From NCBI GenBank assembly GCA_963779615.1, contig CAVZZA010000003.1:384001-448000 (forward strand): a DNA stretch of 64,000 nt. Direction: 5' to 3'. Shown here piece after piece: positions 6,626 to 31,954 of the stretch (its first letter is position 1; every line of letters starts with the position of its first letter). The DNA is from an uncultured Nitrososphaeraceae archaeon. Lineage in GTDB: Archaea > Thermoproteota > Nitrososphaeria > Nitrososphaerales > Nitrososphaeraceae. The notes under the pieces were generated by a model. That model had not been told where the DNA came from. It worked only from the letters and a program-made list of their open reading frames with translations, and did not search any database. The translations under genes were made by a program, and so were the position numbers.

Positions 6626-8591
6626 TGATCTAATAGGTTACTTCCCTTCTTCTGATGACACTTCCCAAACAAAAGATAAAGATATTGCAATGTCCATTAC
6701 AAATACATCTAAACCCAAAAAAGAAAAAGAAGATTGGGAACCAATAAGAACCCAACCAGAAATATTAATGGAAATTGCTGAAAAGAGCATAGATGTTTTA
6801 TTCAAAGACCAACACAATGATGGCCTTGCCACTGTTTCCATAAATTCTCATTATGAAGTTGTTCCATTAACAAGCAGTAGATTCACAAGGCTTTTGGCAA
6901 AGACATACCATGACAATACCGGAAAATTTGCAAATAACGAATCCATAAAGAACGTTGTAAACACACTGCAAGCCAAGGCAGAATTTGGAGACACACAATA
7001 CCCGCTATCACTAAGGGTGGCCAAACATGAAGGGGACATATATTATGACTTAACTAATGAAAGGCATCAAGCAGTTAAAATATCACAAAATGGAAGATGG
7101 GAAGTGATAGACAAGACACCTGTGCCACTATTTAGTAGATACAACCAAACACCACAAGCCCTGCCATTTGCGGATCCCTTGTCAGATGATGAACAGGACC
7201 CTCTTGAAGACTTTCTTTCAAAACTGACAAACATCAAAGACGGGGAAACAAGGTTGCTTGTCAAGGTGGCGTTGATTTCTTGGTTTATCCCGGATATCCC
7301 CCACATACTTTTGATAGTTCATGGAGGAAAGGGAAGCGCCAAATCCATGTTTTTGACTTTGATCAAATCCCTTGTGGATCCCGCCAAACCCTCTCTCTTG
7401 ACCATACATGATGACAAATCAGAGTTTATTCAGCAACTTGCGCACAACTATTTGGCTGCCTATGACAACCTAAAATACAATCCAAGATGGCTTTCAGATG
7501 AAACTTGCAAAGCCATAACGGGAATAGGTCATACAAAAAGAGCACTATATACCAATGATGAAGACAAAATATACGAGTACAAGCGTTGTTTGATGTTCAA
7601 TGGAATTAACATCGCGTTTTCTGAATCGGACATTCTAGATAGAAGCATCCCTATCGAACTATGTGAAATAAAGCCGGAGCACAGAAGGACCGAAAACGAA
7701 ATACTTGAGGAGTATAACAAACTAAAACCGAAAATACTAAAACAAATTTTGGATACATTGGCAAAATCCATCACAATAAAAAAAGGTGTTAATGTAAAGA
7801 ACTTGCCAAGGATGGCCGACTCTGCCATATGGGGTGAGGCAATTTCGAGGGCCATGGGCTACAAGGAAAACGGGTTTCTTGACGCATATCATAACAACAT
7901 CAGGTTACAGAACGCCGAGGTAATTGACTCAAACCCTGTAGCGTTTGCGATAAAGAAGTTTGTTGAAAATGCAACAGCTTCTGATGATGGTGCCTTTAAC
8001 TTCAACTCCAACAATCCAATCTTTAAGGGCACACCCGCTGAATTGCTTGATAGACTAAATGAAGTGGCACTAGAGAACAAGATAAGCACTTACTCAAGGG
8101 AGTGGCCAAAGGACAAAAAATGGCTTGTGAGGAGGATAAAAGAGATAAAGCAAAACCTGCAACAGGATCTTGGCATTGATATAATAATAGAGAGAGACTC
8201 AAAAAACACCTCCATAGTAAAGATAGAGAAAAATGTCTCCAGTGACTCCGGTGAGCACAAAATGTCTCCGGAAAACGAGAGTTTAACTCCGTATTTGGAA
8301 GAAATGTCTCCGGAAAAAGACAGGATGTCTCCAGACAATCATGACGATACAAGCACAGAATCTATCAAGTCCGGAGACAATGGAGACAATGGAGACATTT
8401 CCCATATATCCATAGAGGGAGATGATAAAACTAAAGACAATGTAAAAGAAACCGAAGGGTCAGACATAGACCAAATGATAGGGTTTAGAGAGCCATTTCA
8501 TTACTGCAAGAAGCACCCCCACGTCCAAAACATACATCGGGAAGAGATAGAGCACCATATCCGATATTCCAAAGAACATGGTGGAAATTAG
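6609..8591 (+). CDS. Putative replication protein, SF3 (D5/P4-type) helicase-like ATPase
   Basis: Walker A variant HGGKGSAKS, Walker B AAYDNL, motif C LMFNGIN, DILDRS. The low-complexity tail encodes the DNA repeat and ends in a CxxH..HH motif. Confidence 0.8.
   Translation: MSEPIDDLIGYFPSSDDTSQTKDKDIAMSITNTSKPKKEKEDWEPIRTQPEILMEIAEKSIDVLFKDQHNDGLATVSINSHYEVVPLTSSRFTRLLAKTYHDNTGKFANNESIKNVVNTLQAKAEFGDTQYPLSLRVAKHEGDIYYDLTNERHQAVKISQNGRWEVIDKTPVPLFSRYNQTPQALPFADPLSDDEQDPLEDFLSKLTNIKDGETRLLVKVALISWFIPDIPHILLIVHGGKGSAKSMFLTLIKSLVDPAKPSLLTIHDDKSEFIQQLAHNYLAAYDNLKYNPRWLSDETCKAITGIGHTKRALYTNDEDKIYEYKRCLMFNGINIAFSESDILDRSIPIELCEIKPEHRRTENEILEEYNKLKPKILKQILDTLAKSITIKKGVNVKNLPRMADSAIWGEAISRAMGYKENGFLDAYHNNIRLQNAEVIDSNPVAFAIKKFVENATASDDGAFNFNSNNPIFKGTPAELLDRLNEVALENKISTYSREWPKDKKWLVRRIKEIKQNLQQDLGIDIIIERDSKNTSIVKIEKNVSSDSGEHKMSPENESLTPYLEEMSPEKDRMSPDNHDDTSTESIKSGDNGDNGDISHISIEGDDKTKDNVKETEGSDIDQMIGFREPFHYCKKHPHVQNIHREEIEHHIRYSKEHGGN
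8231..8400 (+). repeat. Iteron-rich quasi-palindrome R0 (inside rep; putative origin)
   Basis: Ends AAATGTCTCC...GGAGACATTT; several direct TGTCTCC units converge on three inverted GGAGACA units. Confidence 0.85.
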
Positions 8592-8620
8592 AAAACAAAG
8601 GTAGATGATGATGCTTATTT

Positions 8621-9580
8621 TTATCTTCCACTACTCATATGGAATATTTCATTCAAACTAACCGCTGAGCCTCCAGGGTGTGGACCACCGCCAATAACGT
8701 ATATCTTGTCACCGATGGAAGCAGCTGCAAGTCCATGCCTTGCTGTTGGCATAGGTGTCTCCATAGTCCATTTGTTGTTTGATGTATTGTATTTTTCGTT
8801 ATTGCTGAATGTGCCAGATGGTTGCTCGCCCCCAAACACATAGATGCTCCCGTTCACTGCCGCAGAGGCCAAGCCACCTCTTTTTGAGGGCATCGGCTCC
8901 AGCGTGGTCCATTTGTCTGTTGCTGGGTCATAGGCCTCATTGGCATTGACGTTATAGGACATCCCATTGCTTCTTCCGCCGATAACGAATAGTTTCCCGT
9001 CAACAACCGCAGAGGTGAGGTGTTCCCTTGCTGTCGACATGGGTGCTTTTTCTGCCCATTTGTCCGTAGCAGGATTGTATGCCAAAGTGCTTGCCAGTGT
9101 TTTTTCAGAATCCACTCCGCCAGCCACATACAAAGTCCCGTTGATAAAATTGGCTGTTAACGCGCCACGGGCAGACGGCAGGTTTGCCCCTTGGGTCCAT
9201 TGGTTTGTATGTGAGTCATAGATGAACAGTTTGTTTGACAAAGCGTTTCTGTCAAGGTAACCTCCTCCTACCACATACAGTTTTCCGTTGTAAGACGCAG
9301 CAGCAGTGTGGTCCAATGGTTGTGGCAATGGGGCCACGATTGACCATTTATTTGTAATGGGATCTTAAACTTCCACAGCAAAAGTAGGACTGCGACCGTT
9401 TTCAAAGCCACCAATAACATATATCTTGTTATTCAAAACGGCACTTGTGACTTCAGATCTGGCCGTTGGCATGGGTGCTCCATTAGTCCAATATGTTTCG
9501 GCAGATACGTATGATATATGAGAAATCAGCAACACAGGCAGAACCAAAAATAAAAGCAGAACACTCATTCTTAACATCAA
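8621..9580 (-). pseudogene. Secreted Kelch-repeat protein, frameshifted near 9362
   Basis: Signal peptide plus first Kelch blade in 9365-9580; the remaining GG..Y..W blades are in 8621-9337. Confidence 0.85.
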
Positions 9581-9635
9581 CTATTTTTCACCAAGCAATT
9601 ATAAAATAAAGTTACAGATTGATATAAAGATGGAG

Positions 9636-9750
9636 AATATCTCTCCGATGACTCCGGTATCTCCAGAGGAGCATAAATTGTAATCCAAAATCCGGACATA
9701 TTTTATTTCTTAATCAATTTGTCTCCGGTTTTGCAAAGTTATGTCCGGAA
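9636..9750 (+). repeat. Repeat R1 (right arm missing)
   Basis: CTCTCCGATGACTCCGGTATCTCC...CCGGACATA...TTGTCTCCGGTTTTGCAAAGTTATGTCCGGA matches R2-R5. Confidence 0.85.
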
Positions 9751-10053
9751 ATGAAAGAAAGAGTTAAGGATTATCTGTTGAAAATATCATATTGTGCTTA
9801 TCGCTATTGCATTGTTAATTGAAAGTTGTTGCTACTAGTCGTCAAGCCAAGTTGAAGGTCAAGGGTGTCCACGAGGTGGGGACACAGAGGAGACAGCGTT
9901 GTTTTACAGACCTTGCAGTATTTCTACCAAACTGCCCTTACCTTCAAAGGATACTATATATGCACGATTATATTTCTGGGTTGGTCCAAACCATATCATG
10001 ACAAACGAGATGCTTTCTGATTAGCAGGTGCGCTCCGAATTAAAAGAATACAT

Positions 10054-10728
10054 TCATTTACAGAACTTTTTAGCATCCTCCGGCGAGAGATTATTACCTT
10101 TGCATATCCCCACAGGATAATTGATAATGTCTTGATTATCAGTAGAATTGCTTTGAATCTCAAAAGAATCGATCATTGTTTCTATAGGGGAAAGGTATTG
10201 ATTGTATTTTCCTTTTTCGGCAAGATATATGATGACATAGGCTTTGCCATCCTTTATGGTCCAAACCTCTAATGCCTGTAGTCCTTTATTATTGCCATAT
10301 GTCACATTGGTGCCAGGATAATTTGCAAGGGTAGTATTATCCGATTTGATGCTGGTAAGAGATTTGTTCTTTAAGTAACCAACTTGCATACTGCTATAAT
10401 CTTCTAGAGTTAGATTTGCGACTGGTAATTTATGGACATATATTCCAAGGCCTACAGCATATTTGCCAGAAGAGTCTGCAGGTGGGCGAAATGCAACAAC
10501 ATTGTCAACCCCTAAATTTTTTTTAGTCCAATTAGAAGGATATTCTATCTTTATTCCATGATTGGAGTTTTCGTATAACATGAAATCATTTCGTGTTGTA
10601 GTTTGAGCTAATGCCTGATGGGAATAATATACAAGTATGGGAGAAATCGAATAAAATGCGAGTAAAAAAAATAAAATTATAAAAGGGTGCAAAAATACAA
10701 CTTTTCCAATCCGTTTCTGCTTTGGCAA
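10054..10728 (-). CDS. Secreted PsbP-like protein
   Basis: N-terminal hydrophobic segment; YENSNHGIKIEYPSNW...MIDSFEI pattern. Confidence 0.75.
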   Translation of the reverse strand: MPKQKRIGKVVFLHPFIILFFLLAFYSISPILVYYSHQALAQTTTRNDFMLYENSNHGIKIEYPSNWTKKNLGVDNVVAFRPPADSSGKYAVGLGIYVHKLPVANLTLEDYSSMQVGYLKNKSLTSIKSDNTTLANYPGTNVTYGNNKGLQALEVWTIKDGKAYVIIYLAEKGKYNQYLSPIETMIDSFEIQSNSTDNQDIINYPVGICKGNNLSPEDAKKFCK

Positions 10729-10978
10729 TCCAGTTATAATTTGGTATAATGCATATTAATGCATTTTTGTTATTCTGGTATCAAAAAGAAATGCTTTGTA
10801 CCTATTCCGTACAACCTTTTTTTTATTGCTATATGTCTGTCATTCCAGCCATTTTTCGACTTATATTTTCAATGACTGACCTGGCCTTCGAATATGAAAT
10901 CAAATGAAATGCATTTTTTTACTTTTACGTGTGATGCTATATGGATACATTAAACCACTGCAGTTTAGGTTTTAACAC

Positions 10979-11431
10979 CTATACTATCATAGACATCAGA
11001 CCTAACGAGTATTTTAGAGATAGACCGACAAAATCCATCAGTGGCTGAATGTTTCTAGTATTAAATTCAGAAATATCTTTTGAGACGGTAAAATGGAGTT
11101 TAGAATTTGGAGGTATTATGAATCCCTTCAAAGGTTTTGTAAGCTCAGGTGTTTTTGGACTTTGTGTAAGCTCAGGTGTTTTTGGACTTTGTGTAAGCTC
11201 AGGTGTTTTTGGACTTTGTGTAAGCTCAGGTGTTTTTGGACTTTGTGTAAGCTCAGGTGTTTTTGGACTTTGTGTAAGCGGATGATTTGTGATACCTTTT
11301 GGAGGTGTAATTGGTTTTACTTCACGTTGAGCATCCGATTTGGTAATGATGTTGTTTGTTAGCAGCATCAGCACGGTTAAAATTAATAATGTTGTCGCTA
11401 AAGCCATAATCTCAGAATTGTATTTACTCAC
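10979..11431 (-). CDS. Secreted protein with TQSPKTPEL repeats (possibly truncated)
   Basis: Signal peptide followed by five 9-aa repeats. Confidence 0.55.
   Translation of the reverse strand: MSKYNSEIMALATTLLILTVLMLLTNNIITKSDAQREVKPITPPKGITNHPLTQSPKTPELTQSPKTPELTQSPKTPELTQSPKTPELTQSPKTPELTKPLKGFIIPPNSKLHFTVSKDISEFNTRNIQPLMDFVGLSLKYSLGLMSMIV
11139..11279. repeat. 27-bp tandem repeat, about 5 copies, coding
   Basis: GTAAGCTCAGGTGTTTTTGGACTTTGT head-to-tail with no spacers. Confidence 0.95.
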
Positions 11432-11633
11432 GCCCTATTGCATTCACAACTTCAAGATTGATAAGTATTGTCTTATTTTTAATAATAATTCGTTCTTACA
11501 CGCGATATTTCGTATGTCTTACTTCTTATTCGGACTGTCAAAACATGGGCTCTGAAATAGCCGTTAACAACAGCTAAAAATGGTCGACTTGACTAATTTT
11601 GTGTCATGTGGTTCATGCAGTAATCTTTTGGCA

Positions 11634-14078
11634 TCAACTCCTTTGGTTATTTTTAATATTTTCTAAATCTTGCTGAGCTATCTTTGCATCTGGAAGATTA
11701 AGATCTTGAAGTATACGATGCGCTTCTGATGTACAGTTAATGGCCTCATCATCCTTTTTTTGCTTGAGTAGAACTTTCCCCATATTCCACAAAGTAAAAG
11801 CTATACCAGACTGATTCCCTAGTTGCTTCTCTATGGATAGCCTCTCCTTGTATGCCTCTAACGCCTTGTCATAATCCCCCGTATAATAATAAACGCTGGC
11901 CATGCCATGCAATGTTTCAGATACACCTAATTGATTGCTAGCCTGCTTCGCTATTGACAAACTCTCTTTTAAGTGACTTAACGCCTCGTCATATTCCCCT
12001 CTGATTCGAAGAATGTTAGCAATATTATATAATGATGAATACAGGTATAATTGAATATTCGTAGTAGATCCACCTGGTTGATTGCTAGCCTGCTTCCATA
12101 TTGACAAGTTCTCCTTGTATATTTTTAACGCCTCGTCATATTCTTCTCTATCCTCATATATCGTAGCTCTCATATGATTTACCGCTGCGATACTGTATTC
12201 ATTCCCTGATTGCTGCTCAATCTGCATCTGATCGTCTAAAACTTTTAGCGCCTTGACATAATCTCGTTTCATATAGTGCATTTTAGCTATGCTGGACAGC
12301 ACATTGGCTCTGCCTTGGTCATTTTTGACATCTGAATAATATTTTAAAAGTAGTTGGTAATTGTCACCAGCATCCTCGTATCTTCCCCATACGACGAAAA
12401 CATAATTAGTTAAATCCAAAATGAGATTCATTTTTTTATCTTCAAAACCTTCTATGTGTTCTGAATCATCGATTGCCCTTTTGTAGCATCGTTCTGCAAG
12501 GTCAAGGTCTCCTATGCTAGAAGCATACCTCCCAATCTCGTTATTGCGACGGTATGATTCTTTAAGAGATTCAAGAGACCTTTTGGACATATGAAGATGA
12601 TATGCAGCTGAAATAGCTATCTTGTAACCATCCTGTGTTTGTAAGTTGCCATTGTCATCATGATCAGAATTGTCATGATATTGTTCATCTTTTTCTTCTA
12701 ATCCTGTTGTTCTTTCCATGTTATTTTTCTGTAATTCAATGAAGAACTTTGCAGCCAGATCATGGTATTGCCTATTTAATGAGTTGCCGAGGTCATCTTC
12801 AAAGCATCTTTTTATCAAATCATTTTTAAACCAGCTGTCAGTGTAGTTTTTGCTGTTATTTTTGACCAATGGATAAAAGATCCTGTTTTCAATGAGTTTT
12901 TCTATAAATGGATGCAGCTGAAATAGATCGCTTATTTCCAGATATGAGGCTAGTATCTCATCGTCACTGAAAGGTTGTTGCAGTATGGATAGGCGATACA
13001 GACTTTTTTCCATGTCGCTAGATAGTCCATCCTTTAGTTTGGTTATTTGATTACATAGTTCTTCTCTGTTTATGGTCTCATGGTCCTTACAGTCCGCAGA
13101 TGTTCTTATCCACTCCTCCAAAAGTATAGGCAGACCTGCCGAGTTCTCCTTTATTCTTTTCAAATCGGGAATCATGGGGAGGGAGATACCTCTGACCACC
13201 TGTATCCATTTGCCTATGTCTACGTCAGGCAAGCCCTGCAACTCCATTATTTTGCCATGGATCTCTCTTTTTACTTTGTCTCTTAACTCTTCAAACAGGG
13301 CTTTAAGGGAAGAATCCAGTATTACTCTTTCATCGGTGCTAAAAGACACTATGATGTGAAATCTTTCTTCAATCATCAAAAACTTGGCAAAGTTTAAGAA
13401 AAAGTCAATCGAGGCCTTGCCTACATACTCAAACTGATCAAATATTAATACAAACTTTCAATCCTTAAATTCATCCAAAAGAGTTTTAAATATTTCTATA
13501 ATTGATTCCCTGGCCTCGTCTTTGTGCTCTGCTACATAACTTTGAGCTAATAACAGGCCTGTCTTCTCCGCTCCTATGGATTTGACTATATTCTTTCCAA
13601 CTTCAAATGTTTGCCCAAAACCTGCTTTCTTGGCTACATCTTCCAATACTGCGAGCCCTATCTTTTTTCCTTGCTCTTTAGCAGACTTTAGAAATCCATT
13701 CTTAACTCTGGTTAGGGCAGTGTCTATTCTTTCGCCAAGATTTTGAGATTCTTTTGCTGTTTTCGCCAGGGTCTCTAAAGCAATTTTGAAAGGATAGATT
13801 AGTGACTCGGACTCGGCTATCAGGGATTCCTTTCTGCTGTAGTAGCCTACAAATGTGTTGTTTATTAGATTGTGGTCATTGCCTTTATTTGTAAGCCTTC
13901 TATAAATCTCATCCAAAAGTGCAGACTTGCCTATGCCCGAATCTCCCGTTACAAGCCATGCACTGGTGCCTTGGTCATTCTGGATGCCATCAAGTAATTC
14001 AGAAATCTCATTATTCCTGCCAAAAAGTAAACTCTTTGCAGCCACATCATCATCGGCAGAGGCGACATTATTAGTCAA
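11634..14078 (-). pseudogene. P-loop NTPase (AAA_16/STAND-like) plus TPR protein, one in-frame TGA at 13458-13460
   Basis: FGRNNEI..VTGDSGIGKS Walker A; FDQFE Walker B lies after the stop; GLPILL; C-terminal TPRs. The paralog has CGA at the stop position. Confidence 0.85.
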
Positions 14079-14384
14079 TTAGGATCACCATATGTTTTCT
14101 GTAATTGTTGCCAATGGCATAAAGATTGCTGCAATACCCAAACTATTAATAGAAGTGGTAATAGTGATGTCAGGATAGTTCAATTAAACTCTAAAAAATT
14201 GTCTTAACGGCTTCTGTGGGTACGTAAATACTTGGATTACCATAAGAGGAATAGATAATCAGCATCATCCGGAAACATTCCTTATTTAAGAGGCATTTTC
14301 ACATTAAAATAATTATTTGTAGTTTTTTTTCTCATTTTTAGTCTAAATATATATGTTGTTACTAAATTCATAACAAGGTAGGAA

Positions 14385-14562
14385 ATTTGTCTCCAATATC
14401 TCCGGTATCTCCGGGTAAGCACAAATATGCACAAAAAACCCGGACATAACTTATCTCCTAAACAAGTTGTCTCCGGTTTTGCAAAGTTGTCTCCGGACAA
14501 TAACCGATAAAACAAGCACAAGTTCACTATTTCCGGATACACCGGAGACATCGGAGACATTT
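14385..14562 (+). repeat. Repeat R2
   Basis: TTTGTCTCCAATATCTCCGGTATCTCCGG...TCCGGATACACCGGAGACATCGGAGACATTT. Confidence 0.95.
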
Positions 14563-14947
14563 TTGGTATACTCTGGGAGGACACTAAGAAACAGTAAAGA
14601 TTGGGGTTCAACAATTGCAATTTTTATGAATCATCATCAGTGTAAGATATTCAAACCAAAGACACTAATCGATTGTAAAAAATAACCGCTTAATCAAAAA
14701 AGCTATGTGCCATTTCAACATATTTATAAACATAACCTTGGCATTTTCTTCAAAGAATTCTGAATATTCCAATGGAACAGACGAAGACATGTTTGGCAAC
14801 AAGATAAGAATACTAAGAAGGTAAAATCATAAGACTTCTAATTAGAACAAAGAGTGAACGATGGATAAGCTGGCGCAGTTTTTACAATGAAAATCTTTAT
14901 TAAGGATTATTCAACCTTTGAGAAGGTTTATTGATAAAACTGGTTGT

Positions 14948-19582: not shown

Positions 19583-19601
19583 TAATTAGATCTCTTAAAA
19601 C

Positions 19602-22372: not shown

Positions 22373-23425
22373 AGATCTCTTGCATAATTAGAAACAGCAT
22401 GCTCTGTCAGTTTGGCAATGACTGATGATGTCAATCTAAAAAGACGACAATGTTCTGTAGTTTACCAACCCCGATACTATATCGGATATATTGTCATAAT
22501 TTCTCAACCTGTTTCTGAATGTGTCGCCCATTATCCTGTACTTTTACATCCTGCAAATAGTATGCTCTATCACTATCCTTTTTCTAGAGTGATTATGGTT
22601 GCACTCCTTTTCCTCATGGGACAAATCTTTTTGGCCTCTCTTCTTTCTGTTTGGCAGGGACGATAGTTGCTCTGGAAAGTCTTTCCCAACCCCAAGGTAT
22701 CCGAGGTCAAACACGCTGACAACCTGCTTTGGGGTTACCGGGTGATTCTTCTTGTAGATGTCATAGTCATGCCTTTTTCCTTTCTTATGGCCTGTTTTGT
22801 GAATAATGACACCCTGGCTGTTAACCGTGAGCTGTGTCTTTACGGTATGCATTTTCTTTCTTTCCTGAATAATACATTTTCCTTCTTTCTTTATTCTTTG
22901 GTCTTGGAATCTGCTGCTCTGTACAATCCACGAAAGCAATAAAACCCGGAAAGTACTTTTCAACTTCTTCTGGTGTACGCAGCCTTTTTGCTACTTTGTA
23001 CATCTTTTGTGGAATTGGCACGCACTTTCTTATCAACGACTCAATTTTTTGAATATCTCTGCAAATGTTACTCTGATCCAAATCAAACAAAAAGCCAGCC
23101 AGAGTGTAGGTTATGTAAAGACGGTAATAGTATACCAAAAGCATCAGAAACCTGTTTTTAACATCCAGATTGAAATGTCTTCCTCCAGCATCTATGGATC
23201 GTTCTCTGTCTTTTCTTTTGGATAACCGCTTGATCTCATGCTTGCCGTATCTTTTTATTATCTCTTTTTTGTAAATATCATCAAACTCTTTTACTGTTGC
23301 CTCCAGTGAATGATTTGAAAAGAAATGGTTATCTGGATAACCTTTCATACGAAAGCAAATAAAGGACATGAAATTTATGAACTGATGGTCATAAAGCTGT
23401 TTAGTAGCAATTATGCGAGAGATCT
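22373..23425 (-). mobile_element. IS5-family insertion sequence (1053 bp) with frameshifted DDE transposase
   Basis: Ends AGATCTCTTGCATAATT / AATTATGCGAGAGATCT, ATT target duplication; VDCTEQ, DLGYLG and RIVIEH motifs in ORFs 22821-23369 and 22544-22963. Confidence 0.9.
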
Positions 23426-24065
23426 ATTATATAAAATCCGTATTCAGGATAGATCCATTACCAGTACGTGGATTTAATACCGTATCTGCAATTGTACTCT
23501 TATTATTTTTATTATATAAGATAATGTGGTATACTATAACTGTAAAACAGAAAAATCTAATCCGAAATCAATAAAGTATATGATTGGAACTTGGTGACAT
23601 GAGATTCAGATAAAGACAAGGAATCTGGAATTATGACCAAGCCTCAGATATATAGACAGAGCCTTGATTGGTTGTATTCACCTTTATAACTTATCTCAAC
23701 TGTTTGTAAATTCAGACCTTTCATCTAGAGATTGTAAGAGGGAAAAGCAAAAGTGTAGAGAGGAATTTATCAGATGATACATTGCAGATATAGCTGTAGA
23801 GTATGCTATTTCATCTGGTTCAGTTCTTTTTCTTACCTGACTTATAAATTATATTCCAGACATAAATCTATACCTTTTTTCCTTAACTTTAAAGAGCGGT
23901 TAAATATATCCGAGATAATTTGACAAGTTAAGTTTGTTTATATAATAGACATCTTTTATAAAGGTATTGGCTTATTTAAGATCCATTTCATTAAATCTGT
24001 TTCTAATTTGCGTTGGTTTAATGGTGGATGAAATTACAATTTTTCCATATACTCGATTACAATAG

Positions 24066-24356
24066 GTGGGATATAGTATAAAAGGAGTTCGCGATAATTT
24101 TACAAATTCACCTGACAATACCAATGGTCCAACGGCATATGTATTATTAAACTGTGACTCGGGTTCTGAAAACGATATAATAAAAAAAATCGAACTGATA
24201 CCTGAAGTAGAAGAAGTCCATAGAATATTTGGAGCTTATGATGTTATCGTTAAGCTGCAATCGCTTGATATGGATAAACTCCGAGAGATTATAACTTGGA
24301 ATATAGGAAAAATAGATAAAATACGCTCAATATCTACATTGATTGTAAATAAATAA
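24066..24356 (+). CDS. Stand-alone Lrp/AsnC ligand-binding domain protein
   Basis: AYVLLNC..EVHRIFGAYDVIVK..IRSISTL. Confidence 0.85.
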   Translation: MGYSIKGVRDNFTNSPDNTNGPTAYVLLNCDSGSENDIIKKIELIPEVEEVHRIFGAYDVIVKLQSLDMDKLREIITWNIGKIDKIRSISTLIVNK

Positions 24357-25077
24357 CAAGAAAAAGGGTAAACATATACTGATTGACATATATTCGCTAT
24401 TCAGTTCTCAACAGATACTTTACTACATCTAGGTTAAATCGTCTTTATCGTCGTATCGTTGTTATTGTAGCATCCTAGGGGCTGTTAAATGTATACTTAC
24501 GACGATACTACGGTTACTACGGTATTTTCCATACTTTAACAAAAAATTATGAAATTAAGATGCCCTATAAAATTTAGGAGGACTTTATAATATATAACAT
24601 AACAAGATTTAGTTTTATTGTCTGTGCTGCAATTGATGGCCTATTATAACAGAAAAATGTATTAAAATTTAATTTAGTGTCATTTAAATGGTAACATAAA
24701 AAATATCTCACATAATCCAGTTTATGGATTAAGGCAACCTAGAATTGTTTATTATTTCTTCCATCTCTCCACCATTAAAAGTGTCTTTTGATTCTAGGTC
24801 AAAAATGTTGTTGTAGAGTTATGCATTCAATACATTGTCTTGGAGCCTGGATAGTAATAATTGTTGCAATCGGTGTAAATTGGTTAATCCAACAGGAACA
24901 CTTACCGCCTGAATCCCAGCGTTATTGAATGTTTAATCTCCACCGGGATGCTGGGATGGCACACTTCAAACTTGAAAAGTTGGGAGTTAGGCATTTTTAT
25001 GAAGAGTGTGATAATGGATATATGTATATCATCTGCAGGCATGGTGTTTTTGTTTCCAGAAAAGAAGGGGCGCTAGA

Positions 25078-25648
25078 ATGAGGTTTCATGCAGAGAAAAA
25101 AGGCATCCGTGTATTAGGAATAGCTGAAATCTTCAGAAAAACTAGTGCTTGTTCCACGCTAGCGGGAATAGTAATGCGCCGTGACCTGATAATTGACGGC
25201 ATGGTTTTTGGGAATGTCGCGATTGGAGGAAATGATTCTACGCAAAACATCCTGTCCATGTACAGGTCATTAAAGAGAAATGACATTAATTGCATAATGC
25301 TTGATGGCCTTGTTATCAGCATGTACAACATAATAGATGGTGAAGAACTTGGAGAAAACACCAATGTTCCAGTTATAGCGATATCATTCAAAGACTCGGA
25401 GGGACTGGAAGGTGCCATACAACACCACTTTTCCAATGACTCCAATCCTAAATTAGAACAATACCGTAAACTAGGGCAACGAGACAAAACTCTATTAAAG
25501 ACGGGGCAAGACTCTGTTCGTACGGTACTGGGGAATAAGCCCAAAAGAAGCATCCACGATCATTGATTGCTTTACACTCCAAGGTTCCATTCCAGAGCCG
25601 ATTAGAGTAGCAAAACTTGCTGCTCGTGCCAGCATGCGAAGCAAATGA
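25078..25648 (+). pseudogene. DUF99-family (endonuclease V-like) protein, frameshifted near 25510
   Basis: IRVLGIAE..GGNDST..MLDG..YNIID; the C-terminal GSIPEPIRVAKL is in another frame. Confidence 0.8.
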
Positions 25649-25949
25649 CTCGGACTTAGGGCATCCCACCATAATATTATCTGTATTTGGTCCAAATGAT
25701 ATTTCCATGATACTCTGGGAAGGGGGTGCGATCATATAATAGCCATTATCCACTAAAACTATTACGGAATTACATGTCTGTTTAGGTGGGATTAACTTCT
25801 TGATGGTATGCTGGACTGATTGAATTTGGATAATATGATTACCATAATCAATATCAACTACACATTCTGTACATATTCCTGTTGGCTATTCTAACGGATA
25901 AGCATAAAAAAATAAAACCATTACAACAGCATCCATAACAAAGTAGGAA

Positions 25950-26127
25950 AATTGTCTCCGATGTATCCGATGACTCCGGCTGAGCACAGCTATACGCAGA
26001 AAACCCGGACATAACCTCTTTTCTTAACCAATTTGTCTCCGGTTCTGCAAAGTTATATCCGGATAAAAGCAAAAATTTAGTGCTTAAAATCTAGATTTCG
26101 GAGACACCGGACACACCGGAGACATTT
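25950..26127 (+). repeat. Repeat R5
   Basis: ATTGTCTCCGATGTATCCGATGACTCCGG...TCGGAGACACCGGACACACCGGAGACATTT. Confidence 0.95.
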
Positions 26128-26413
26128 TTAGTTAATTGGTAAGAGATGCTGGGAAGTTTAGGGATAGGAATTTGCGAAAAAAGTATGGATAATATATGGA
26201 CAGAAAATAAAATAATGAAAAAAAATTGTTGATTCGTACAATCACAGCCCTCTCATAAAATAAAGACCAAACTTAATACCTCATCAGTAATAAGACATAG
26301 TAGGATTGAGAATATAAAAAAAGAAACAGGCAACCTCGTTCGCTGCATTTTGTGATTTGGTTTTTGATAAGGGCTTTATGGTTGGCAAAACAACAGTTCC
26401 CATGACTCATTCG

Positions 26414-26977
26414 TCAAAAGAGTTTTCGGTTCTTTAAATCGTAATATTTGTTTTTCATTTTGTCGATTTCCTGATGATAATACTTTAAAGTCTCTTTTGA
26501 GTTGAATGTGTCGACATCGAGTCGGTCCTTTTCCAACTTGTAGTTTTTATTATCCCTTTTGATGTCAACTATTTCTTTGACATCCTTCAAGCTGAGGTGG
26601 CCTTCCCTTAAATAGTGAAGCAATTCCAAAAACTCAGGTTTGTTTCCATTTTCAGACAATACGGAAACAACATCGTGCCGATTTTGTAATGCCAGATAGT
26701 CAGAATGTATTTTCAGGGCCTGGTCCGGTGGCAGGTCAAGCCCAATTGCGACCTGGATGATGGACTTGCCCGTTAAAAACAGCCTAAAGGCCTGGGATGC
26801 AATTGACAGGGGATTTTTCTTTTTATCATCTTCATTAACCTCGCCAGTTAGTTTGTTTCTTATCTTCTTGATTTCGGTAAATGAGACATGGGCCTGCTTC
26901 GCAATCTCCATTGCCGTAAGTCCTTAGTTGAGCATATCAATGACCAACGCCTCCTAGTCCTTTTCACTTAAAATCAT
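26414..26977 (-). pseudogene. HTH/coiled-coil protein (paralog of 40560-41114) with two early stops
   Basis: MILSEKD*EALVIDMLN*GLTAMEIAKQAHVS.. aligns with MILKRQQKEDLVIKLAEEGKSTRFIAEAAHVS. Confidence 0.7.
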
Positions 26978-27375
26978 GACACCTCACATTGTTATCATGT
27001 TTATTTATAAAGAAATGATTTTGCTATTCCTGTTACTGTCTTCTTTCACATACTTTTGTTTGTGACACATATTGACATCTTATCTAGTAAGCATCAAAAG
27101 TTGCCAGAACAAGATGTAATTTCTATATTGTCTCAATGCTTGGAGGAGTGCAATAAGGTAAGTAAAATTAGATGCAAATATCGTTAAAGAATTATGGAGC
27201 TGTAAGATATGATAAGGGTTGTTGGCCTATCAGCATAGAAAATATGAAGAAAGAGAATTACGTGGCTATAGAATTGTTCAGAATTAACTCAATAATTAAT
27301 AACAATTACATTCTAATTCTTATTTCTAATCATGATAAAAAAAGAATATTAGATCAATATTATGAATATTAAAAA

Positions 27376-28798
27376 TTGTCTATCACATTATTTGTAGCGC
27401 ATAGTCAAAGGGATGCTGAGTTACGCGGAATCCTTTCACAAGCATTGTCTATAAAGGGCATCAAACCCAAACTAATGGAATTTGAAGATCTTGGTAGAAG
27501 ATATCGCGGTTTTGAAATCAGCAATAGCATCAAAGAAGACTCGGATGGACTCGTAGTCCTTCTCGGAACGAATGTATTAAATCCACAAATGAGAAATCCT
27601 CAGTTTACCCGAAACTGGGTAGCGTTTGAAACAGGCGTCTCGGTTGGTGCCAATAAAAGAGTATGGGTAATAGAAGAAAACAAGAATAAGATCAGTTTTC
27701 CAATTCCTTATGTTACAGATTATATAATAATCAAAAACGTAGAAGAGGATATAAAAATTATTGGAAACATATTTGAAAATGTTTATTCAAAGACATCTGA
27801 AGAAGTAAAGAGTGTTAAATATGTGACAGTAACATGTCCATTTGAGAACTGTAACGCAAATTTTAGATTCTGGACAGTTTTTAAAAATAATTAGTTGTCC
27901 TGTATGCAGACAGCAGATGGACCTAGGCTTATACGATTTGAATACACAAAATGTCAAATCAATAAAAGCGAATGTAAAGATACCTAAATTAGTAGTTGAA
28001 TATGATGACAGAGAATATAATGCCAAAGTCCTTTATCGCGTCATTAGAAACACAAAGGAACGCTTTGAACATATAGGATCGCCACATAGAGACGATCCTA
28101 TTGATTTACTTTTGAAGAATCAAAGAGAATTAATTTTTAGAATCGAAAAAAAACCTAGACAAATAATTCCTCTTCTAGTTGACTTTGATGGTGATATTGT
28201 ATCTTATTGGTATATTCAAAAAACTAATGATAATAAATATATCCTGGACTTTAGACATAGGGTTCCAAATCACAATTTTCAAATTTATACCATCTTTGAG
28301 AATTACGAGATTGCATTCAACTTTTTTGTAACACTGGAAAATAAAGAAACCGGATATCCATCTTATAGTATTCAAAAAATAAGTTTTGTTCATGCATCAA
28401 AAGAAGATCATAATAACAAAGCTTCAAACGTCATGACTTATGAGAAAGATACTATATGGATAAGTGAAGGAGATGATTCATGGATAGAATTGGAATTAGA
28501 GAATGTGACTGAGATAAATTATCTTACAATAAAATGGACTAGCAATACGCTTCTTATTAATCGTTTTAGCATATCCTTATCTTTAGATGGAAGAACATTT
28601 GGTGATCAAATGTACTTTGTAAGTGAATTTGTTTCCAGGGAAGAGAATTTCTTTATAGAGAGCACAGAACCTAAATATGGAAAATTCGTCAGACTGTCAT
28701 TTCAAAACAAGGAAAAAAATGGTCGTGTTAACATTTCTCATATCAAGATTTTTGGAATAGACTCATCGGTTGGTCATGTAGGTTTATCTAGCGTATAA
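27376..28798 (+). pseudogene. TIR-like domain plus Zn finger plus discoidin (F5/8C)-like protein, frameshifted near 27885
   Basis: LFVAHS..SDGLVVLLG..NWVAFETG (TIR-like); CPFENC and CPVC on either side of the shift; WISEGDDSWIELEL..SLDG..FVRL (discoidin-like). Confidence 0.7.
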
Positions 28799-29110
28799 TT
28801 GCAAATAAATCAGTATATAACGATTATTATGGAAATAAGGTTGGTTTATAAAAGAAATAATGCCTAGATCTCTGCTACATTATTTTACCTCTGTTACATA
28901 TGTTATTTTTTATGTTGTTTTTGGAGGATTACAGCTATTGGGAGATCTTCGAACTCTTGAGGCCCCCACGGGCCACAAGCTTTAGCTGGTCTGGGCATAT
29001 CATTATCCACCTCAATATGGGAACTATGGCAACTGCCAACCTTTTTTTTACTGATTTTGGTAGGTTGGTTAAGGATTTTTCATGGTTGACCTTGCTGAAT
29101 TTAGTAAGAT

Positions 29111-29289
29111 TTGTGTCTCCAATGACTCCGGTAACTCCGGTGAGCACAAAATGTCTCCGGAAAACGAGAGTTTAACTCCGTATTTGGAAGAAATGTCTCC
29201 GGAAAAAGATAAGATGTCTCCAGGCAATCGGGATGATGCAAGCATTAAATCCAACAGTTCCGGAGACACCGGACACAGCGGAGTCATTC
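29111..29289 (+). repeat. Repeat R6 (same subtype as R0)
   Basis: Close match to 8231-8400, with one additional 9-bp unit in the left arm. Confidence 0.95.
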
Positions 29290-29480
29290 CCTATATATCT
29301 AAGGAGGAAGTTGACAAAACTAAAGACGATGTAAAAGAAACCGAAGGGTCAGAAACAGATAAAATGATAGGGTTTAGAGAGCCATTTCATTATTGCAGGC
29401 AGCACCCCCATGTCCAAAACATACATCGAGAGGAGATAGACCACCATATACGATATTCCAAAGAGCACGTTGGAGAGTAG
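29111..29480 (+). pseudogene. Orphan duplicate of the rep 3' tail
   Basis: SGEHKMSPENESLTPYLEEMSPEKD...IRYSKEH matches the Rep C-terminus; no rep homology upstream of 29111. Confidence 0.92.
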
Positions 29481-29622
29481 AAAACAAATGATGATGATAT
29501 TTATTTTTACAAGCAAATCCTAACTCATTTATTTTGGCGATACTTGTTCTCTTCATGTCATCTGTTGGTGTCCAAGATAAAAGAATTTAAGTAAATGCTC
29601 AAAGTCCTAGTCTAATACAATC

Positions 29623-31281
29623 ATGAACGTAATGGATTTCGGAGCCAAGGGGGATGTGAAATTGGGCTTTAATGGATCAATTCCTAAAGAAGATCTTGAT
29701 AAACTGTGTGTGCATGATGCTGCCTTTAATGCTAACGATATTGGCAAAATCATCAGCATTGCAAAACCGGGGGATAAAATACCGGTACTTAAAACAGAGA
29801 TTAAAGGTCTTGTTAGTAGTGACGTGGTCATTCTAAAATCACCCTCGTCTGGACCGGCAATGGATTTAGATGTCATGTGGGGAACAAGCGACACATTGGC
29901 TGTACAAAGGGCGATTGACAAGGCAGGTAAAGGAGAAACCATCTTCTTTCCTCCTGGCATATATTGCGCTCACGATTTATACCTTAAACCCGGGATTTCA
30001 CTCGTTTCCTTGGAGGGGTCTCTCATGTCTGTGGGCACATCCGATATTCCAGAAAACTGCGTTCCAAAGATCTTGCTGGAAGGAGCTATTATGACGCAAT
30101 TTATTGGAGACAATTCTACCTTCTTTTTTAGTGATAGCAATCGGCCCAATAGAGGCAAGCTGACAGGAGTCAGATTCAAAGGACTGATATTTGATGGCAA
30201 TATTGATCACAATAACAAATCATGTACGCTACTTTATCTAGGAAATGTTGACGGTCATTTAGGGGTTGACTTCTTTGACTGTGAGATAAAGAACTTTAGC
30301 TATGGCATACATGTACGGGGAGCTAATCATTCGTCATTTGAGTTCAACGGCTGTAAATTCAAGAAAAATGGCGGTACTTGTATAGCATTCGACAATACTA
30401 GCACAAATGACATAAGAATCACAGACTGCAAATTTATTGACTGTCTTGATGGCATTCAGATTTATCCCAATAGTAAGTTGCCTGAAGGTGAAGTAGAATT
30501 AGTTACCTGGAACACTTGCGATCAAGTCTTAGTTGAAAGATGCCATTTTTCTGGCAAGATGAGAAACCCAATTAAATGTGCAGGGGGTTCTTTTAAAAAT
30601 CCAAAGCTTAAACGTAAACCAGATATTAGACTTGCAGCAACTCATGTAACTGTCAAGGGGTGTACAGTCGTTGGGCCTGCCAGGTGGTGGTGGGATTATG
30701 TCAGTAAAGGTTCAGCAGATCAAATTGCACTGTATGGTGTAGACCACTTTACGGTTACCGGAAATGTGTCGAATAAAGGAGGCGATGGGGGAATTGTGAT
30801 CCAAGAAAGTCAGCACGGAACCATAGCGGGTAACACATGTTGTGAGAATTTTGGACCTGGAATATACATATTATCAGTAGATAGATCATCATCCTTCATC
30901 AATGTTAATGGCAATAATTGTATCAAAAATTGCCGTCGAGCTACGCTACCAGTTAGATGTGGAGACGAAGGTAAGAGAATAATTAACCACCCTGCAGGCA
31001 TAATGCTGTCTGGCTGCAACGATGTTCTAATTACGAATAATCTTTGCTACGATATTGCACTGCCTCGTACAAAGGCAACTCAGCTTTATGGTCTTTCTAT
31101 TAGCGACAGTACCAAAAATGTCGCAATTGGATCTAACATTATCGGTTCTAATCTTTTATTGGGTGTACCGGATTCTGGACGCGGAGGAGGAGGGGACGTC
31201 TTTGTCGACAGTCTTTCCACCTATGAAGTATTAAAGTCCTATAGCGAATATATCTCAAAAATTGAAGTCATCGGTGATTAA
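29623..31281 (+). CDS. Right-handed parallel beta-helix protein (pectate-lyase-3 / tailspike-like)
   Basis: NVMDFGAKGD..SDTLAVQRAID..TIFFPPGIY, followed by I-x-GN beta-helix rungs. Confidence 0.85.
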   Translation: MNVMDFGAKGDVKLGFNGSIPKEDLDKLCVHDAAFNANDIGKIISIAKPGDKIPVLKTEIKGLVSSDVVILKSPSSGPAMDLDVMWGTSDTLAVQRAIDKAGKGETIFFPPGIYCAHDLYLKPGISLVSLEGSLMSVGTSDIPENCVPKILLEGAIMTQFIGDNSTFFFSDSNRPNRGKLTGVRFKGLIFDGNIDHNNKSCTLLYLGNVDGHLGVDFFDCEIKNFSYGIHVRGANHSSFEFNGCKFKKNGGTCIAFDNTSTNDIRITDCKFIDCLDGIQIYPNSKLPEGEVELVTWNTCDQVLVERCHFSGKMRNPIKCAGGSFKNPKLKRKPDIRLAATHVTVKGCTVVGPARWWWDYVSKGSADQIALYGVDHFTVTGNVSNKGGDGGIVIQESQHGTIAGNTCCENFGPGIYILSVDRSSSFINVNGNNCIKNCRRATLPVRCGDEGKRIINHPAGIMLSGCNDVLITNNLCYDIALPRTKATQLYGLSISDSTKNVAIGSNIIGSNLLLGVPDSGRGGGGDVFVDSLSTYEVLKSYSEYISKIEVIGD

Positions 31282-31778
31282 GTCCTAACCTTTTTTCACT
31301 AACATAGACATCTACGCCCCAATTGGCCAATCCCTGTTGATTACCATTATGCAAACCATTTACCATAATTGATTAAAAAATAAATTTGAATTTACTGTTG
31401 TTTTCTCCATAAATGGGATTGGTAAATATAATTAGTAAAAATAAAGAAACTGTTATAAAAGAACTTGTTTAATTTTAAAAAGTTAGAGATAACGCATTTT
31501 TTTAAAGTCACTTGATGTAGTTTGCTTTTTATACGCAATTAAATACACTAATTTCTTCAAAAGAAAATAACTTTAGTAGATATCATTTTCTATATTGCTA
31601 AAACAAACATACTTTACCACTATTTGTATTTTAACTGTGGACTAAAGACAACGTAATCTACAAACAAACCGGTCAGTATCAACGACATTTTTATTATATT
31701 TTACATTAAATGAACTGCAGGAAAAATTGATTTCATCAATACAGTGGCCATATGACAACATTCAAAACATACTTGGAA

Positions 31779-31954
31779 ACTTGTCTCCAATGTCTCCATT
31801 ATCTCCGGATAGGCACAAATATGCACTGAAAACCCGGACACAGCTTCTCTCTTTGCAATTTATATCCGGTTTTGAAAGGTTATCTCCGGATATTAACAAA
31901 GGTTTAAGCACAAGATTCATAGTTCCGGAGACACCGGACACACCGGAGACATTT
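31779..31954 (+). repeat. Repeat R7
   Basis: TTGTCTCCAATGTCTCCATTATCTCCGG...TCCGGAGACACCGGACACACCGGAGACATTT. Confidence 0.95.

What the first reader, a model, noticed from the sequence alone, without database searches (positions are those of the whole stretch)
8231..31954. Array of cargo blocks delimited by eight co-oriented origin-like palindromes: a candidate archaeal cassette-capture system
Seen: eight copies of a ~175-bp repeat at 8231, 9636 (partial), 14385, 16675, 19127, 25950, 29111 and 31779. A full copy has two or three direct TGTCTCCGG-like 9-mers, conserved internal units (GCACA, TGTCTCCGG, AAGC) and three inverted 9-mers. All eight point the same way (1/128 if random). None was seen outside 8.2-32 kb and no target duplications are evident. 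They separate 1.2-6.6 kb blocks of unrelated genes; three intervals hold essentially one gene (Kelch, Mrr-like nuclease, beta-helix protein). Known: integrons stack cassettes between co-oriented imperfect palindromes (attC), and phage or satellite replication genes often carry iterated origins. Inference: each block may be a 'site plus cargo' circle that is replicated or recombined using the element's Rep and/or integrase and stacked downstream of rep.
Basis: partly seen in the sequence, partly recalled or inferred. Interest (0 to 1): 0.93.

Follow-up and report, generated by a model that had tools for sequence, protein, structure and literature searches.

The report
Replication-origin repeats stacked with cargo genes
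An integrated plasmid-like element of a soil ammonia-oxidising archaeon carries eight same-direction copies of what looks like its own replication origin, with unrelated genes between them, and related elements show smaller versions of this layout, so it may be a way such elements collect genes.

Summary
There are exactly eight co-oriented copies of a ~230-250 bp repeat at 8.2-32 kb.

The repeat is not integron-like. It is the iteron palindrome in the 3' end of a D5/Cch-like helicase-initiator gene, rep (6597-8591). Homologous rep genes in several Nitrososphaeraceae genera carry it at the same place.

Evidence that the copies are protein-binding sites:
- In the non-coding copies the 9-mers are conserved far better than the spacers: 0.85 against 0.62.
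- The 9-mer sequence changes in concert within each lineage.
- The arms show no hairpin covariation.

The copies are mosaics of one another.

Smaller co-oriented sets downstream of rep occur in three other elements, and the same genome holds a rep-less three-copy array.

The whole array lies inside a ~39 kb element at tRNA-Ala.

Best reading (0.42): these are cognate origin copies, accreted with cargo by recombination at the origin. In relatives most copies are solitary rep-3' remnants, and two pairs are in opposite orientation. I rate it a new variant of a known kind, with moderate to high interest.

The parts
2254..2346 (+). tRNA-Ala(TGC). Its last 16 nt (2331-2346) are the putative attL core.
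   Evidence: ARAGORN and Rfam; att search.
2291..3652 (+). Tyrosine-recombinase-like integrase ORF. The true start is probably downstream of the tRNA.
   Evidence: Weak Phage_integrase hit, E=1.8e-4, below the Pfam cut-off. Paralogues elsewhere in the genome.
3672..5735 (-). 687-aa ORF with no family assigned.
   Evidence: No hit in Pfam, NCBIfam or PHROGs.
6158..6625 (+). 155-aa ORF upstream of and overlapping rep. It is conserved next to rep in relatives.
   Evidence: tblastn hits next to rep in L034 and L048 and on C1.
6597..8591 (+). rep: a 664-aa helicase-initiator with a Walker A motif. Some homologues are fused to a PrimPol domain. Residues ~537-610 are encoded by repeat copy 1.
8204..8434 (+). 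Repeat copy 1 (type A), inside rep. It encodes a predicted disordered acidic linker.
8621..9337 (-). Cargo block 1: Kelch-repeat protein.
   Evidence: Pfam Kelch_1, E=1e-52.
9608..9830 (+). Repeat copy 2 (type B). The right arm is degenerate.
10054..14078 (-). Cargo block 2: a PsbP-like protein, a 150-aa ORF with 27-bp tandem repeats, and a STAND NTPase-TPR gene split into two ORFs.
14355..14593 (+). Repeat copy 3 (type B).
14948..16534 (-). Cargo block 3: zinc-ribbon plus Mrr-like nuclease.
   Evidence: Pfam Mrr_cat, E=7e-14.
16645..16998 (+). Repeat copy 4 (type B) followed by a frameshifted remnant of the rep C-terminal domain.
17137..19031 (-). Cargo block 4: ORFs of 449 aa and 93 aa, no family assigned.
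19103..19336 (+). Repeat copy 5 (type B).
19602..25566 (.). Cargo block 5: an HtrA-like protease, an IS copy (22332-23426) and a frameshifted Endo_dU gene.
25920..26163 (+). Repeat copy 6 (type B). Together with Endo_dU it is 84% identical to C5:213957-215209.
26414..29120 (.). Cargo block 6: a 165-aa ORF (multi-copy family that lies downstream of repeats elsewhere), a 172-aa ORF, an F5/8-type-C protein, and a 210-bp tRNA-adjacent-type sequence (28903-29120) that abuts copy 7.
29082..29509 (+). Repeat copy 7 (type A) plus an intact 132-aa ORF. This is a duplicate of the rep 3' end: 86% nt identity to 8232-8623, with homology starting at the repeat's left edge.
29623..31281 (+). Cargo block 7: beta-helix / NosD-like protein.
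31747..31981 (+). Repeat copy 8 (type B).
41581..41596 (+). Putative attR: a 15/16-nt repeat of the tRNA-Ala 3' end. It would give a ~39.3 kb element.
   Evidence: 2 matches against 0.25 expected by chance.

Best explanation
**What the repeat is.** The repeat is the iteron-type replication origin of a family of plasmid-like elements integrated in Nitrososphaeraceae genomes. The elements have an integrase next to a tRNA gene, a small ORF, and a D5/Cch-like helicase-initiator, Rep. In this family the origin lies inside the 3' end of rep, where it also encodes a disordered acidic linker. It carries about five direct and four inverted 9-mers (TGTCTCCGG type). I infer that these are bound by Rep, through its winged-helix-like or small C-terminal domain.

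**What the array is.** The eight copies in the window all lie inside one ~39 kb element at tRNA-Ala. Copy 1 is the working origin in rep. The other seven are extra cognate origin modules interleaved with cargo genes.

**How I think the array was built (inferred).** Recombination at the origin itself built it. A DNA circle carrying one origin copy plus cargo (a deletion derivative or a looped-out block) crosses over with a resident origin copy. Such a crossover always leaves two direct repeats flanking the insert. It therefore explains the co-orientation, the fixed repeat boundaries and the mosaic copies. Any two copies can loop a block out again, giving a circle with one origin copy that Rep could replicate in trans.

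**Shown:** the anatomy, the link to rep, selection on the 9-mers, mosaicism among copies, and recurrence of the layout.
**Inferred:** Rep binding, origin activity, circle formation and re-insertion.
For: **1. Link to rep**
- Copy 1 lies in rep.
- The model finds the repeat in the 3' end of rep homologues in G064, G019, G013, G052, G015, L068, L070, L071, L073 and L077.
- DNA identity across six rep genes is 0.61-0.75 over the repeat. That is as high as over the ATPase core, although the repeat encodes a segment with pLDDT below 50.

**2. Rep is an initiator-helicase**
- Foldseek's best hits are the SCCmec Cch helicase, poxvirus D5/E5, ASFV PrimPol and PriRep1 (E about 2e-4, prob 1.0).
- Some homologues are fused to PrimPol (PF09250).

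**3. Protein-binding sites, not hairpins**
- Among eight non-coding copies, iteron columns are 0.851 identical and spacer columns 0.622 (Mann-Whitney p=5e-9).
- The 9-mer changes in concert per lineage...CTCCGG here...C[GC]CCGG in G052...CTCCAC/GTGGAG in G015. The downstream copies share their own rep's variant.
- The arms show no covariation (74% of cells paired; 453 of 500 shuffles reach this).

**4. The layout recurs**
- L070: rep-R, one subtilase gene, then R.
- G052:C45: int, rep-R, R, cargo, R.
- G015:C21: rep-R, then R after 7.8 kb.
- G000:C5: three co-oriented copies.

**5. Recombination among copies**
- 4 of 28 type-B pairs have a max-chi-square p of 0.0015 or less. Two of the four pair a C3 copy with a C5 copy and show most of their differences in the right part of the repeat; a third C3-C5 pair shows the reverse pattern.

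**6. Fixed unit boundaries and no whole-element relics**
- Type-B copies share fixed boundaries.
- No att copies lie between blocks.
- No int, orf155, orf687 or rep-5' remnants lie inside the array.

**7. Precedent**
- SaPI Reps bind iterons that lie immediately downstream of rep, in two opposed sets (PMC9371898, passages).
- The pRN1 origin lies within 166 bp downstream of orf904 (PMC4234260, abstract).
Against: - No excision product, circle or strain-level cassette difference was seen. Public runs hold only small shares of the region, and their 'joints' between repeats are short-sided alignments of diverged copies.
- No close relative shares the array.
- Of the rep loci with at least 5 kb of downstream sequence, most show no extra copy. 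L069, L074, L075, L077, L081, L082, L086, L087, L090, L091 and L092 have none by R1 or self-BLAST, and both methods have limited sensitivity for distant loci.
- In G064, G096 and G019, most copies are solitary 'repeat plus rep C-terminus' fragments on different contigs, and about half of them carry stops. Two pairs are in opposite orientation (G064:C9 and G019:C72).
- Copies are only 72-80% alike, which is poor substrate for homologous recombination.
- Some cargo is decaying: a frameshifted Endo_dU, a split STAND-TPR gene and an IS insertion. That also fits a graveyard of old elements.
- The Endo_dU+R and R+BNR modules shared between arrays have one boundary at a repeat. The other boundary falls at a gene edge, not at a repeat.
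- Rep binding and origin activity are untested.
Confidence: 0.42

Rival explanations
1. Graveyard of old elements. Each block is what remains of a separate related element that integrated or recombined here. The origin and rep 3' end survive longest, and the array has no present function.
For: - Copies 4 and 7 still carry rep C-terminal coding sequence.
- Solitary 'repeat plus rep C-terminus' remnants are common in G064 and G096.
- Homologues of the 165-aa ORF lie downstream of repeats in L001 and L043 and, by weaker or more distant matches, in L058 and L070.
- Some cargo is pseudogenised.
- A tRNA-adjacent-type sequence abuts copy 7.
- Copies are only 72-80% alike, so they are old.
Against: - No att repeats lie between blocks.
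- No int, orf155, orf687 or rep-5' remnants lie in 24 kb.
- The 9-mers are selectively conserved in non-coding copies. Relics should not show this.
- The unit boundaries are identical among type-B copies.
- The type-B copies form one clade, with support 1.0 for the branch that separates it (together with three copies from other genomes) from the other copies; it also contains the downstream copy of another species' element. This argues against independent arrivals.
Confidence: 0.2
2. Extra iteron clusters kept for control. The downstream copies arose by local duplication. They are retained because they titrate or handcuff Rep (copy-number control), or because they exclude related incoming elements (incompatibility decoys). 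On this reading the cargo is incidental.
For: - Selection acts on the 9-mers in non-coding copies.
- Downstream copies carry the iteron variant of their own rep in three genera.
- A rep-less array persists on C5.
- A free-standing ORF encodes only the linker and the small C-terminal domain (29082-29480).
- That extra iteron sets beside rep control copy number in iteron plasmids such as P1 and F is recalled from memory and was not looked up here.
Against: - It does not by itself explain the strict co-orientation, or why the copies are spaced by 1-7 kb of unrelated genes rather than clustered.
- Most rep loci have no extra copies.
Confidence: 0.17
3. MITE-like non-autonomous transposon. It derives from the origin, uses its 27-bp triple-9-mer arms as terminal inverted repeats, and inserts preferentially nearby.
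For: - It is a discrete ~250 bp unit with inverted ends.
- Copies occur on three contigs of this genome and are dispersed in relatives.
Against: - No target duplications were seen.
- 8 of 8 and 3 of 3 copies are co-oriented in the two arrays.
- The same sequence is a conserved coding part of rep in several genera.
- No transposase is associated with it.
Confidence: 0.06
4. Integron-like site-specific cassette system. The element's integrase recombines the repeats as attC-like sites.
For: - The repeats are co-oriented imperfect palindromes between cargo blocks, and three intervals hold a single gene.
- Integrons have been reported in Archaea (10.1101/2022.02.06.479319; search listing and start of abstract only).
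Against: - Sequence, not structure, is conserved, and there is no covariation.
- The unit is ~250 bp long.
- Cargo orientation is mixed and some blocks hold several genes.
- The integrase lies ~4.5 kb away at the tRNA, with its own att.
- The repeat travels with rep, not with the integrase: solitary copies carry the rep C-terminus.
Confidence: 0.05

Closest known systems
SaPI / PICI replication module (pri-rep-ori) of staphylococcal chromosomal islands
   Same: Both are integrated elements with an integrase at one end and a self-loading helicase-initiator. In both, short iterons lie at the 3' side of rep in two opposed sets, and in SaPIs they are recognised by a C-terminal winged-helix domain (PMC9371898, passages). 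A Foldseek hit to PriRep1 and to the related SCCmec Cch helicase supports the comparison.
   Different: Here the origin lies inside the rep reading frame and uses 9-mers. It is present in up to eight co-oriented copies separated by cargo. No helper phage is implied. The host is an archaeon.
pRN1-type archaeal plasmids (ORF904 primase-helicase; origin downstream of rep)
   Same: Both have an SF3-type replication protein, which in some homologues here carries PrimPol. In both the origin lies at the 3' end of rep: 166 bp downstream of orf904 in pRN1 (PMC4234260, abstract).
   Different: The pRN1 origin is a ~100-nt stem-loop whose structure is required. Here the arms show no covariation and the 9-mers look like duplex binding sites. 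pRN1 has a single origin.
Integron attC cassette arrays
   Same: Both show co-oriented imperfect palindromes separating unrelated genes, with some single-gene intervals.
   Different: attC sites are short and are conserved in structure rather than in sequence (recalled). This repeat is ~250 bp, is sequence-conserved and shows no covariation. It is part of rep. Cargo orientation is mixed.
IS26 translocatable units and pseudo-compound arrays (recalled from memory, not looked up)
   Same: Both form arrays of directly oriented copies of one element interleaved with cargo. In IS26 the arrays are built by circles carrying one copy plus cargo that recombine with a resident copy.
   Different: IS26 encodes the transposase that does this. 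Here the repeat encodes no enzyme, and the recombination route (homologous or other) is unknown.
Cryptic integrated elements of Thaumarchaeota (Krupovic et al. 2019, PMC6563490)
   Same: Both are integrase-bearing elements at tRNA genes with short att repeats, and some have PrimPol-S3H replication proteins (passages read).
   Different: The main text of that paper has 0 occurrences of 'origin of replication'. 'Iteron' appears only in its reference list. Its supplementary tables were not available to me.

Membership tests
Iteron-type replication origin of a helicase-initiator element | Several short repeats in direct and inverted sets | tested here: met
   About five direct and four inverted 9-mers per copy. 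The window has 52 matches against 5.7 expected.
Iteron-type replication origin of a helicase-initiator element | Physically linked to the cognate rep gene | tested here: met
   The repeat lies in the rep 3' end here and in at least 10 homologous rep loci.
Iteron-type replication origin of a helicase-initiator element | Iteron sequence co-varies with the Rep lineage | tested here: met
   The variant is CTCCGG here, C[GC]CCGG in G052 and CTCCAC in G015. It changes in all sites of a lineage, including the downstream copies.
Iteron-type replication origin of a helicase-initiator element | Rep binds the repeats and replication starts there | not testable with these tools
   This needs EMSA or footprinting and a replication assay.
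Integron | attC: short sites conserved in structure but variable in sequence | tested here: not met
   The unit is ~250 bp and sequence-conserved. Arm pairing shows no covariation (453 of 500 shuffles reach the observed value).
Integron | IntI-type integrase with attI and a promoter next to the first cassette | tested here: not met
   The only integrase lies at tRNA-Ala, ~4.5 kb upstream and separated by three genes. Its Pfam hit is weak. I did not look for the IntI-specific insertion.
Integron | Cassettes are mostly single co-oriented ORFs | tested here: not met
   Cargo lies on both strands. Only 3 of 7 intervals hold a single gene.
MITE | Target-site duplications and dispersed copies in random orientation | tested here: not met
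   No duplications at nine copies. 8 of 8 and 3 of 3 copies are co-oriented in two clusters.
Tandem array of integrase-inserted elements | att repeats and core-gene remnants between units | tested here: not met
   There are only two att-like sites, at 2331 and 41581. No int, orf155, orf687 or rep-5' remnants lie in the array.
D5/Cch-like (SF3-type) initiator helicase | P-loop ATPase fold like that of MGE replicative helicases | tested here: met
   Walker A motif GGKGSAKS. Foldseek hits to Cch, D5/E5, ASFV PrimPol and PriRep1 (E about 2e-4, low TM 0.2-0.4, model pLDDT 62.9). No Pfam or PDB sequence hit.

The most novel reading that the evidence does not exclude
The origin copies are the joints of an origin-based cassette platform. 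Any block flanked by two copies can loop out as a circle that carries one functional origin. Rep amplifies that circle in trans as a satellite replicon, and it re-enters any origin copy in this or another element. In this way these archaeal elements would collect, shuffle and spread host-derived genes (secreted proteins, nucleases, STAND NTPases) without a dedicated cassette recombinase.
Probability: 0.2. Interest if true: 0.85.

Novelty: new variant of a known kind. Interest (0 to 1): 0.62.

Why it matters
Soil ammonia-oxidising archaea of the Nitrososphaeraceae have large, duplication-rich genomes. How they move genes is poorly known, and none of their plasmid-like elements has a defined origin.

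This finding gives two things:
- A concrete, testable origin for one widespread element family: a 9-mer iteron palindrome inside rep. That could seed a replicating vector for a group that has no genetic tools.
- An unusual architecture: several cognate origins interleaved with cargo, seen in three genera.

If the blocks really cycle as origin-bearing circles, this would be a cassette system that works through a replication origin rather than through a recombinase site. If they do not, the extra copies are still a natural experiment in iteron-based control or exclusion in archaea.

Tried and rejected
- **Public reads.** The eight runs found hold only 5-9% of the sampled words. When four runs were laid on 12000-31990, X1 gave a few exact fragments and no joints. 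The repeat-to-repeat 'joints' in X2-X4 have sides of 20-40 nt with extra letters between them, and are alignments of diverged repeat copies. I draw no conclusion from them.
- **Close relatives.** A DNA search of 34 genomes of the genus (G000 included) found only single cargo genes and IS copies scattered on other contigs, with no shared array. Neighbours of Endo_dU in six relatives share nothing but the gene.
- **Metagenome scan.** A scan with the single protein returned one locus, L068.
- **IMG/VR.** No rep relative was found. The triple-9-mer pattern hit nine contigs, but R1 matched only the short pattern there, so they are unrelated.
- **Self-BLAST of rep 3' regions in 21 loci.** This found extra copies only in L072. 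The L080 hits are A/T low-complexity sequence.
- **Family searches.** Pfam, NCBIfam, PHROGs and a PDB sequence profile gave nothing for Rep, orf687 or orf155.
- **Hairpin reading.** One copy folds better than shuffles as ssDNA (z=-4.3), as any palindrome would, but there is no covariation.
- **Supplementary tables of PMC6563490** could not be read. They may list this or a related element.

**Claims that something is not in print rest on** searches and on passages read.

Full report
**1. Observation**

The repeat family is real.
- An nhmmer profile over the whole 3.17 Mb genome, and a sequence-only covariance model (R1) run over the window with filters off, find exactly eight copies in the window.
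- All eight are on the + strand at 116-171 bits. The reverse strand scores at most 44 bits at the same places.
- The 9-mer TGTCTCCGG (up to 1 mismatch) occurs 52 times against 5.7 expected. By my count 43 of the 52 lie in the eight copies.
- Each full copy has three direct 9-mers, GCACAA, one inverted 9-mer, two direct 9-mers, AAGC, then three inverted 9-mers.
- The copy at 9.6 kb lacks the right arm.
- The conserved unit is about 245-260 bp with sharp edges, and I saw no target duplication.

The repeat is not confined to this island. Contig C5 has three co-oriented copies within 4.2 kb, and C4 has one weaker copy.

**2. Setting**

The nearest homologues of the large ORF are named Candidatus Nitrosocosmicus or Nitrososphaeraceae by their sources.

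The window's left part reads:
- tRNA-Ala (2254-2346);
- an integrase-like ORF;
- a 687-aa ORF;
- a 155-aa ORF;
- a 664-aa ORF with a Walker A motif.

The last 16 nt of the tRNA recur (15 of 16) at 41581-41596 and nowhere else in the window. That suggests one ~39 kb integrated element containing the whole array. Short att repeats are usual for thaumarchaeal elements (PMC6563490, passages).

**3. What the repeat is**

Copy 1 lies inside the 664-aa ORF and encodes residues ~537-610.

*The ORF is a replication initiator-helicase.*
- It has no Pfam, NCBIfam, PHROG or PDB-sequence hit.
- Some homologues carry an N-terminal PrimPol domain.
- An AlphaFold model is of moderate quality (pLDDT 62.9). Its best structural matches are the SCCmec Cch helicase, poxvirus D5/E5, ASFV PrimPol and staphylococcal PriRep1 (E about 2e-4, low TM).
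- The model leaves residues 548-620 disordered. It places a helix-helix-hairpin unit before them (476-545), which I take to be winged-helix-like by inference only. A small confident domain follows (621-664).

*The repeat travels with rep.*
- The model finds it in the 3' end of rep homologues in other genomes of the genus and of other genera.
- In a family scan, 16 of 101 genomes (this one included) and 7 of 18 genera had a match.

*The constraint is on the DNA.*
- Across six rep genes the repeat region is 0.61-0.75 identical at the DNA level. That is as high as the ATPase core, which is odd for a disordered linker and points to a constraint on the DNA.
- In eight non-coding copies the 9-mer columns are 0.851 identical and the spacers 0.622 (p=5e-9).
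- In G052 and G015 all 9-mers of a copy, direct and inverted, carry a lineage-specific variant.
- The arms show no compensatory change.

Together this is the signature of duplex binding sites that co-evolve with a protein, that is, iterons of an origin.

*Precedents.*
- SaPI islands have 6-12 iterons immediately downstream of rep, in two opposed sets, bound by the Rep C-terminal winged helix (PMC9371898, passages).
- The pRN1 origin lies just downstream of orf904 (PMC4234260, abstract).

**4. The array**

*Two kinds of copy.*
- Copies 1 and 7 (type A) cluster with rep-embedded copies of other Nitrosocosmicus genomes.
- Copy 7 is a duplicate of the rep 3' end: 86% identical over 392 nt, starting exactly at the repeat's left edge, with an intact 132-aa ORF.
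- The other six window copies, the C5 and C4 copies and the downstream copy of L070 form a second group (type B). The branch that separates it, together with three copies from other genomes, from the remaining copies has support 1.0.
- Copy 4 still carries a frameshifted remnant of a rep C-terminal domain. Type B therefore also descends from a rep 3' end.

*Inside the array.*
- There are no att copies and no remnants of int, orf155, orf687 or the rep 5' part.
- Cargo lies on both strands: Kelch, PsbP-like, STAND-TPR (split), Mrr-like, HtrA, an IS, Endo_dU (frameshifted), F5/8-type-C and beta-helix.
- Several cargo genes are 77-84% identical paralogues of genes elsewhere in the genome.

**5. 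Recurrence**

| Locus | Layout |
|---|---|
| L070 (another Nitrosocosmicus; rep 81% nt identical) | rep with a type-A copy, one subtilase gene, then a co-oriented type-B copy |
| G052:C45 (another genus) | integrase, rep with repeat, a second copy 0.9 kb on, a third 9 kb on, glucose/sorbosone dehydrogenase genes between |
| G015:C21 (a third genus) | a broken rep with repeat and a second copy 7.8 kb on |
| G063:C24 | two copies; the orientation call is ambiguous |
| G064:C9 and G019:C72 | one pair each, in opposite orientation |

- Most other rep loci with 5-10 kb of downstream sequence show no extra copy by my methods.
- G064 and G096 carry many solitary 'repeat plus rep C-terminus' fragments, and about half of them contain stops.

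**6. Recombination**

- The left and right halves of the repeat give conflicting relationships. For example, copies 3 and 4 are 91% alike on the left and 69% on the right. Copy 8 and C5c are 66% and 83%.
- A max-chi-square test on 101 polymorphic columns gives p of 0.0015 or less for 4 of 28 type-B pairs. Three of those four pair a C3 copy with a C5 copy.

So the copies have exchanged sequence with breakpoints inside the repeat.

**7. Interpretation**

I am fairly confident that the repeat is the family's origin.

For the array, I favour accretion by crossover at the origin between resident copies and circles that carry one copy plus cargo. That route alone yields direct repeats, fixed unit edges and mosaic copies.

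It is not shown. I found no circles, no deletions at repeats and no strain comparison.

The main rivals are:
- a graveyard of old elements. This fits the rep remnants, the decayed cargo and the solitary copies in relatives. It does not fit the selection on 9-mers or the lack of other relics.
- extra iteron sets kept for copy control or exclusion. This fits the selection, but not the co-orientation or the spacing.

A MITE and an integron are unlikely, for the reasons given in the membership table.

**8. Novelty**

Iteron origins beside initiator-helicase genes are known, and thaumarchaeal integrated elements are catalogued. I found no description of an origin in these elements or of multi-origin arrays:
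- searches;
- PMC6563490 has 0 occurrences of 'origin of replication' in its main text, and 'iteron' appears only in its reference list. I could not read its supplements.

I rate it a new variant of a known kind, with interest 0.62.

Noticed in passing
window 28903-29120; L066 (C5:409726-410078); L067 (C5:428251-428463): A ~210-bp sequence abuts the left edge of repeat copy 7. It recurs twice on contig C5, once directly after a tRNA gene (Rfam, 43 bits) and once after a tRNA 3'-end-like stub. It contains an inverted partial copy of that tRNA. It may be the end of another kind of integrated element.
   Followed up: partly
window 41584-41728: The sequence right after the putative attR resembles the regions next to integrase paralogues on C4, C5 and C3. 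It may be the start of an older, decayed element in tandem.
   Followed up: partly
G000:C1:503001-518000 (L093): This is a second, related element remnant. It has an orf155-like gene, a rep fragment covering residues 400-553 that stops about where the repeat would begin, a Lactamase_B paralogue and a paralogue of the 165-aa ORF. R1 finds no repeat there.
   Followed up: partly
window 22332-23426 and 55047-56040: An IS with HTH_Tnp_4 / DDE_Tnp_4 ORFs is present in dozens of 70-82% identical copies across all five contigs. The copy at 22.3 kb sits inside cargo block 5.
   Followed up: no
window 11108-11323: About eight tandem 27-bp units lie inside the 150-aa ORF 10979-11431 (minus strand). They would encode a 9-residue protein repeat.
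   Followed up: no
window 53571-53738: About 14 tandem copies of a 12-bp unit (TTGGTCGTTGGG). The flanks are 72-82% similar to 41169-42416.
   Followed up: no
window 11634-14078 and 34489-37223: Two paralogous STAND NTPase-TPR genes, 73% nt identical. The copy inside the array is split into two ORFs. The outer copy is followed by 120-bp TPR-coding tandem repeats (34667-35488).
   Followed up: no
window 29082-29480: An intact 132-aa ORF encodes only the acidic linker and the small C-terminal domain of Rep. Open frames of the same kind occur in G096 and G019, so it may be a free-standing origin-binding or regulatory protein.
   Followed up: partly
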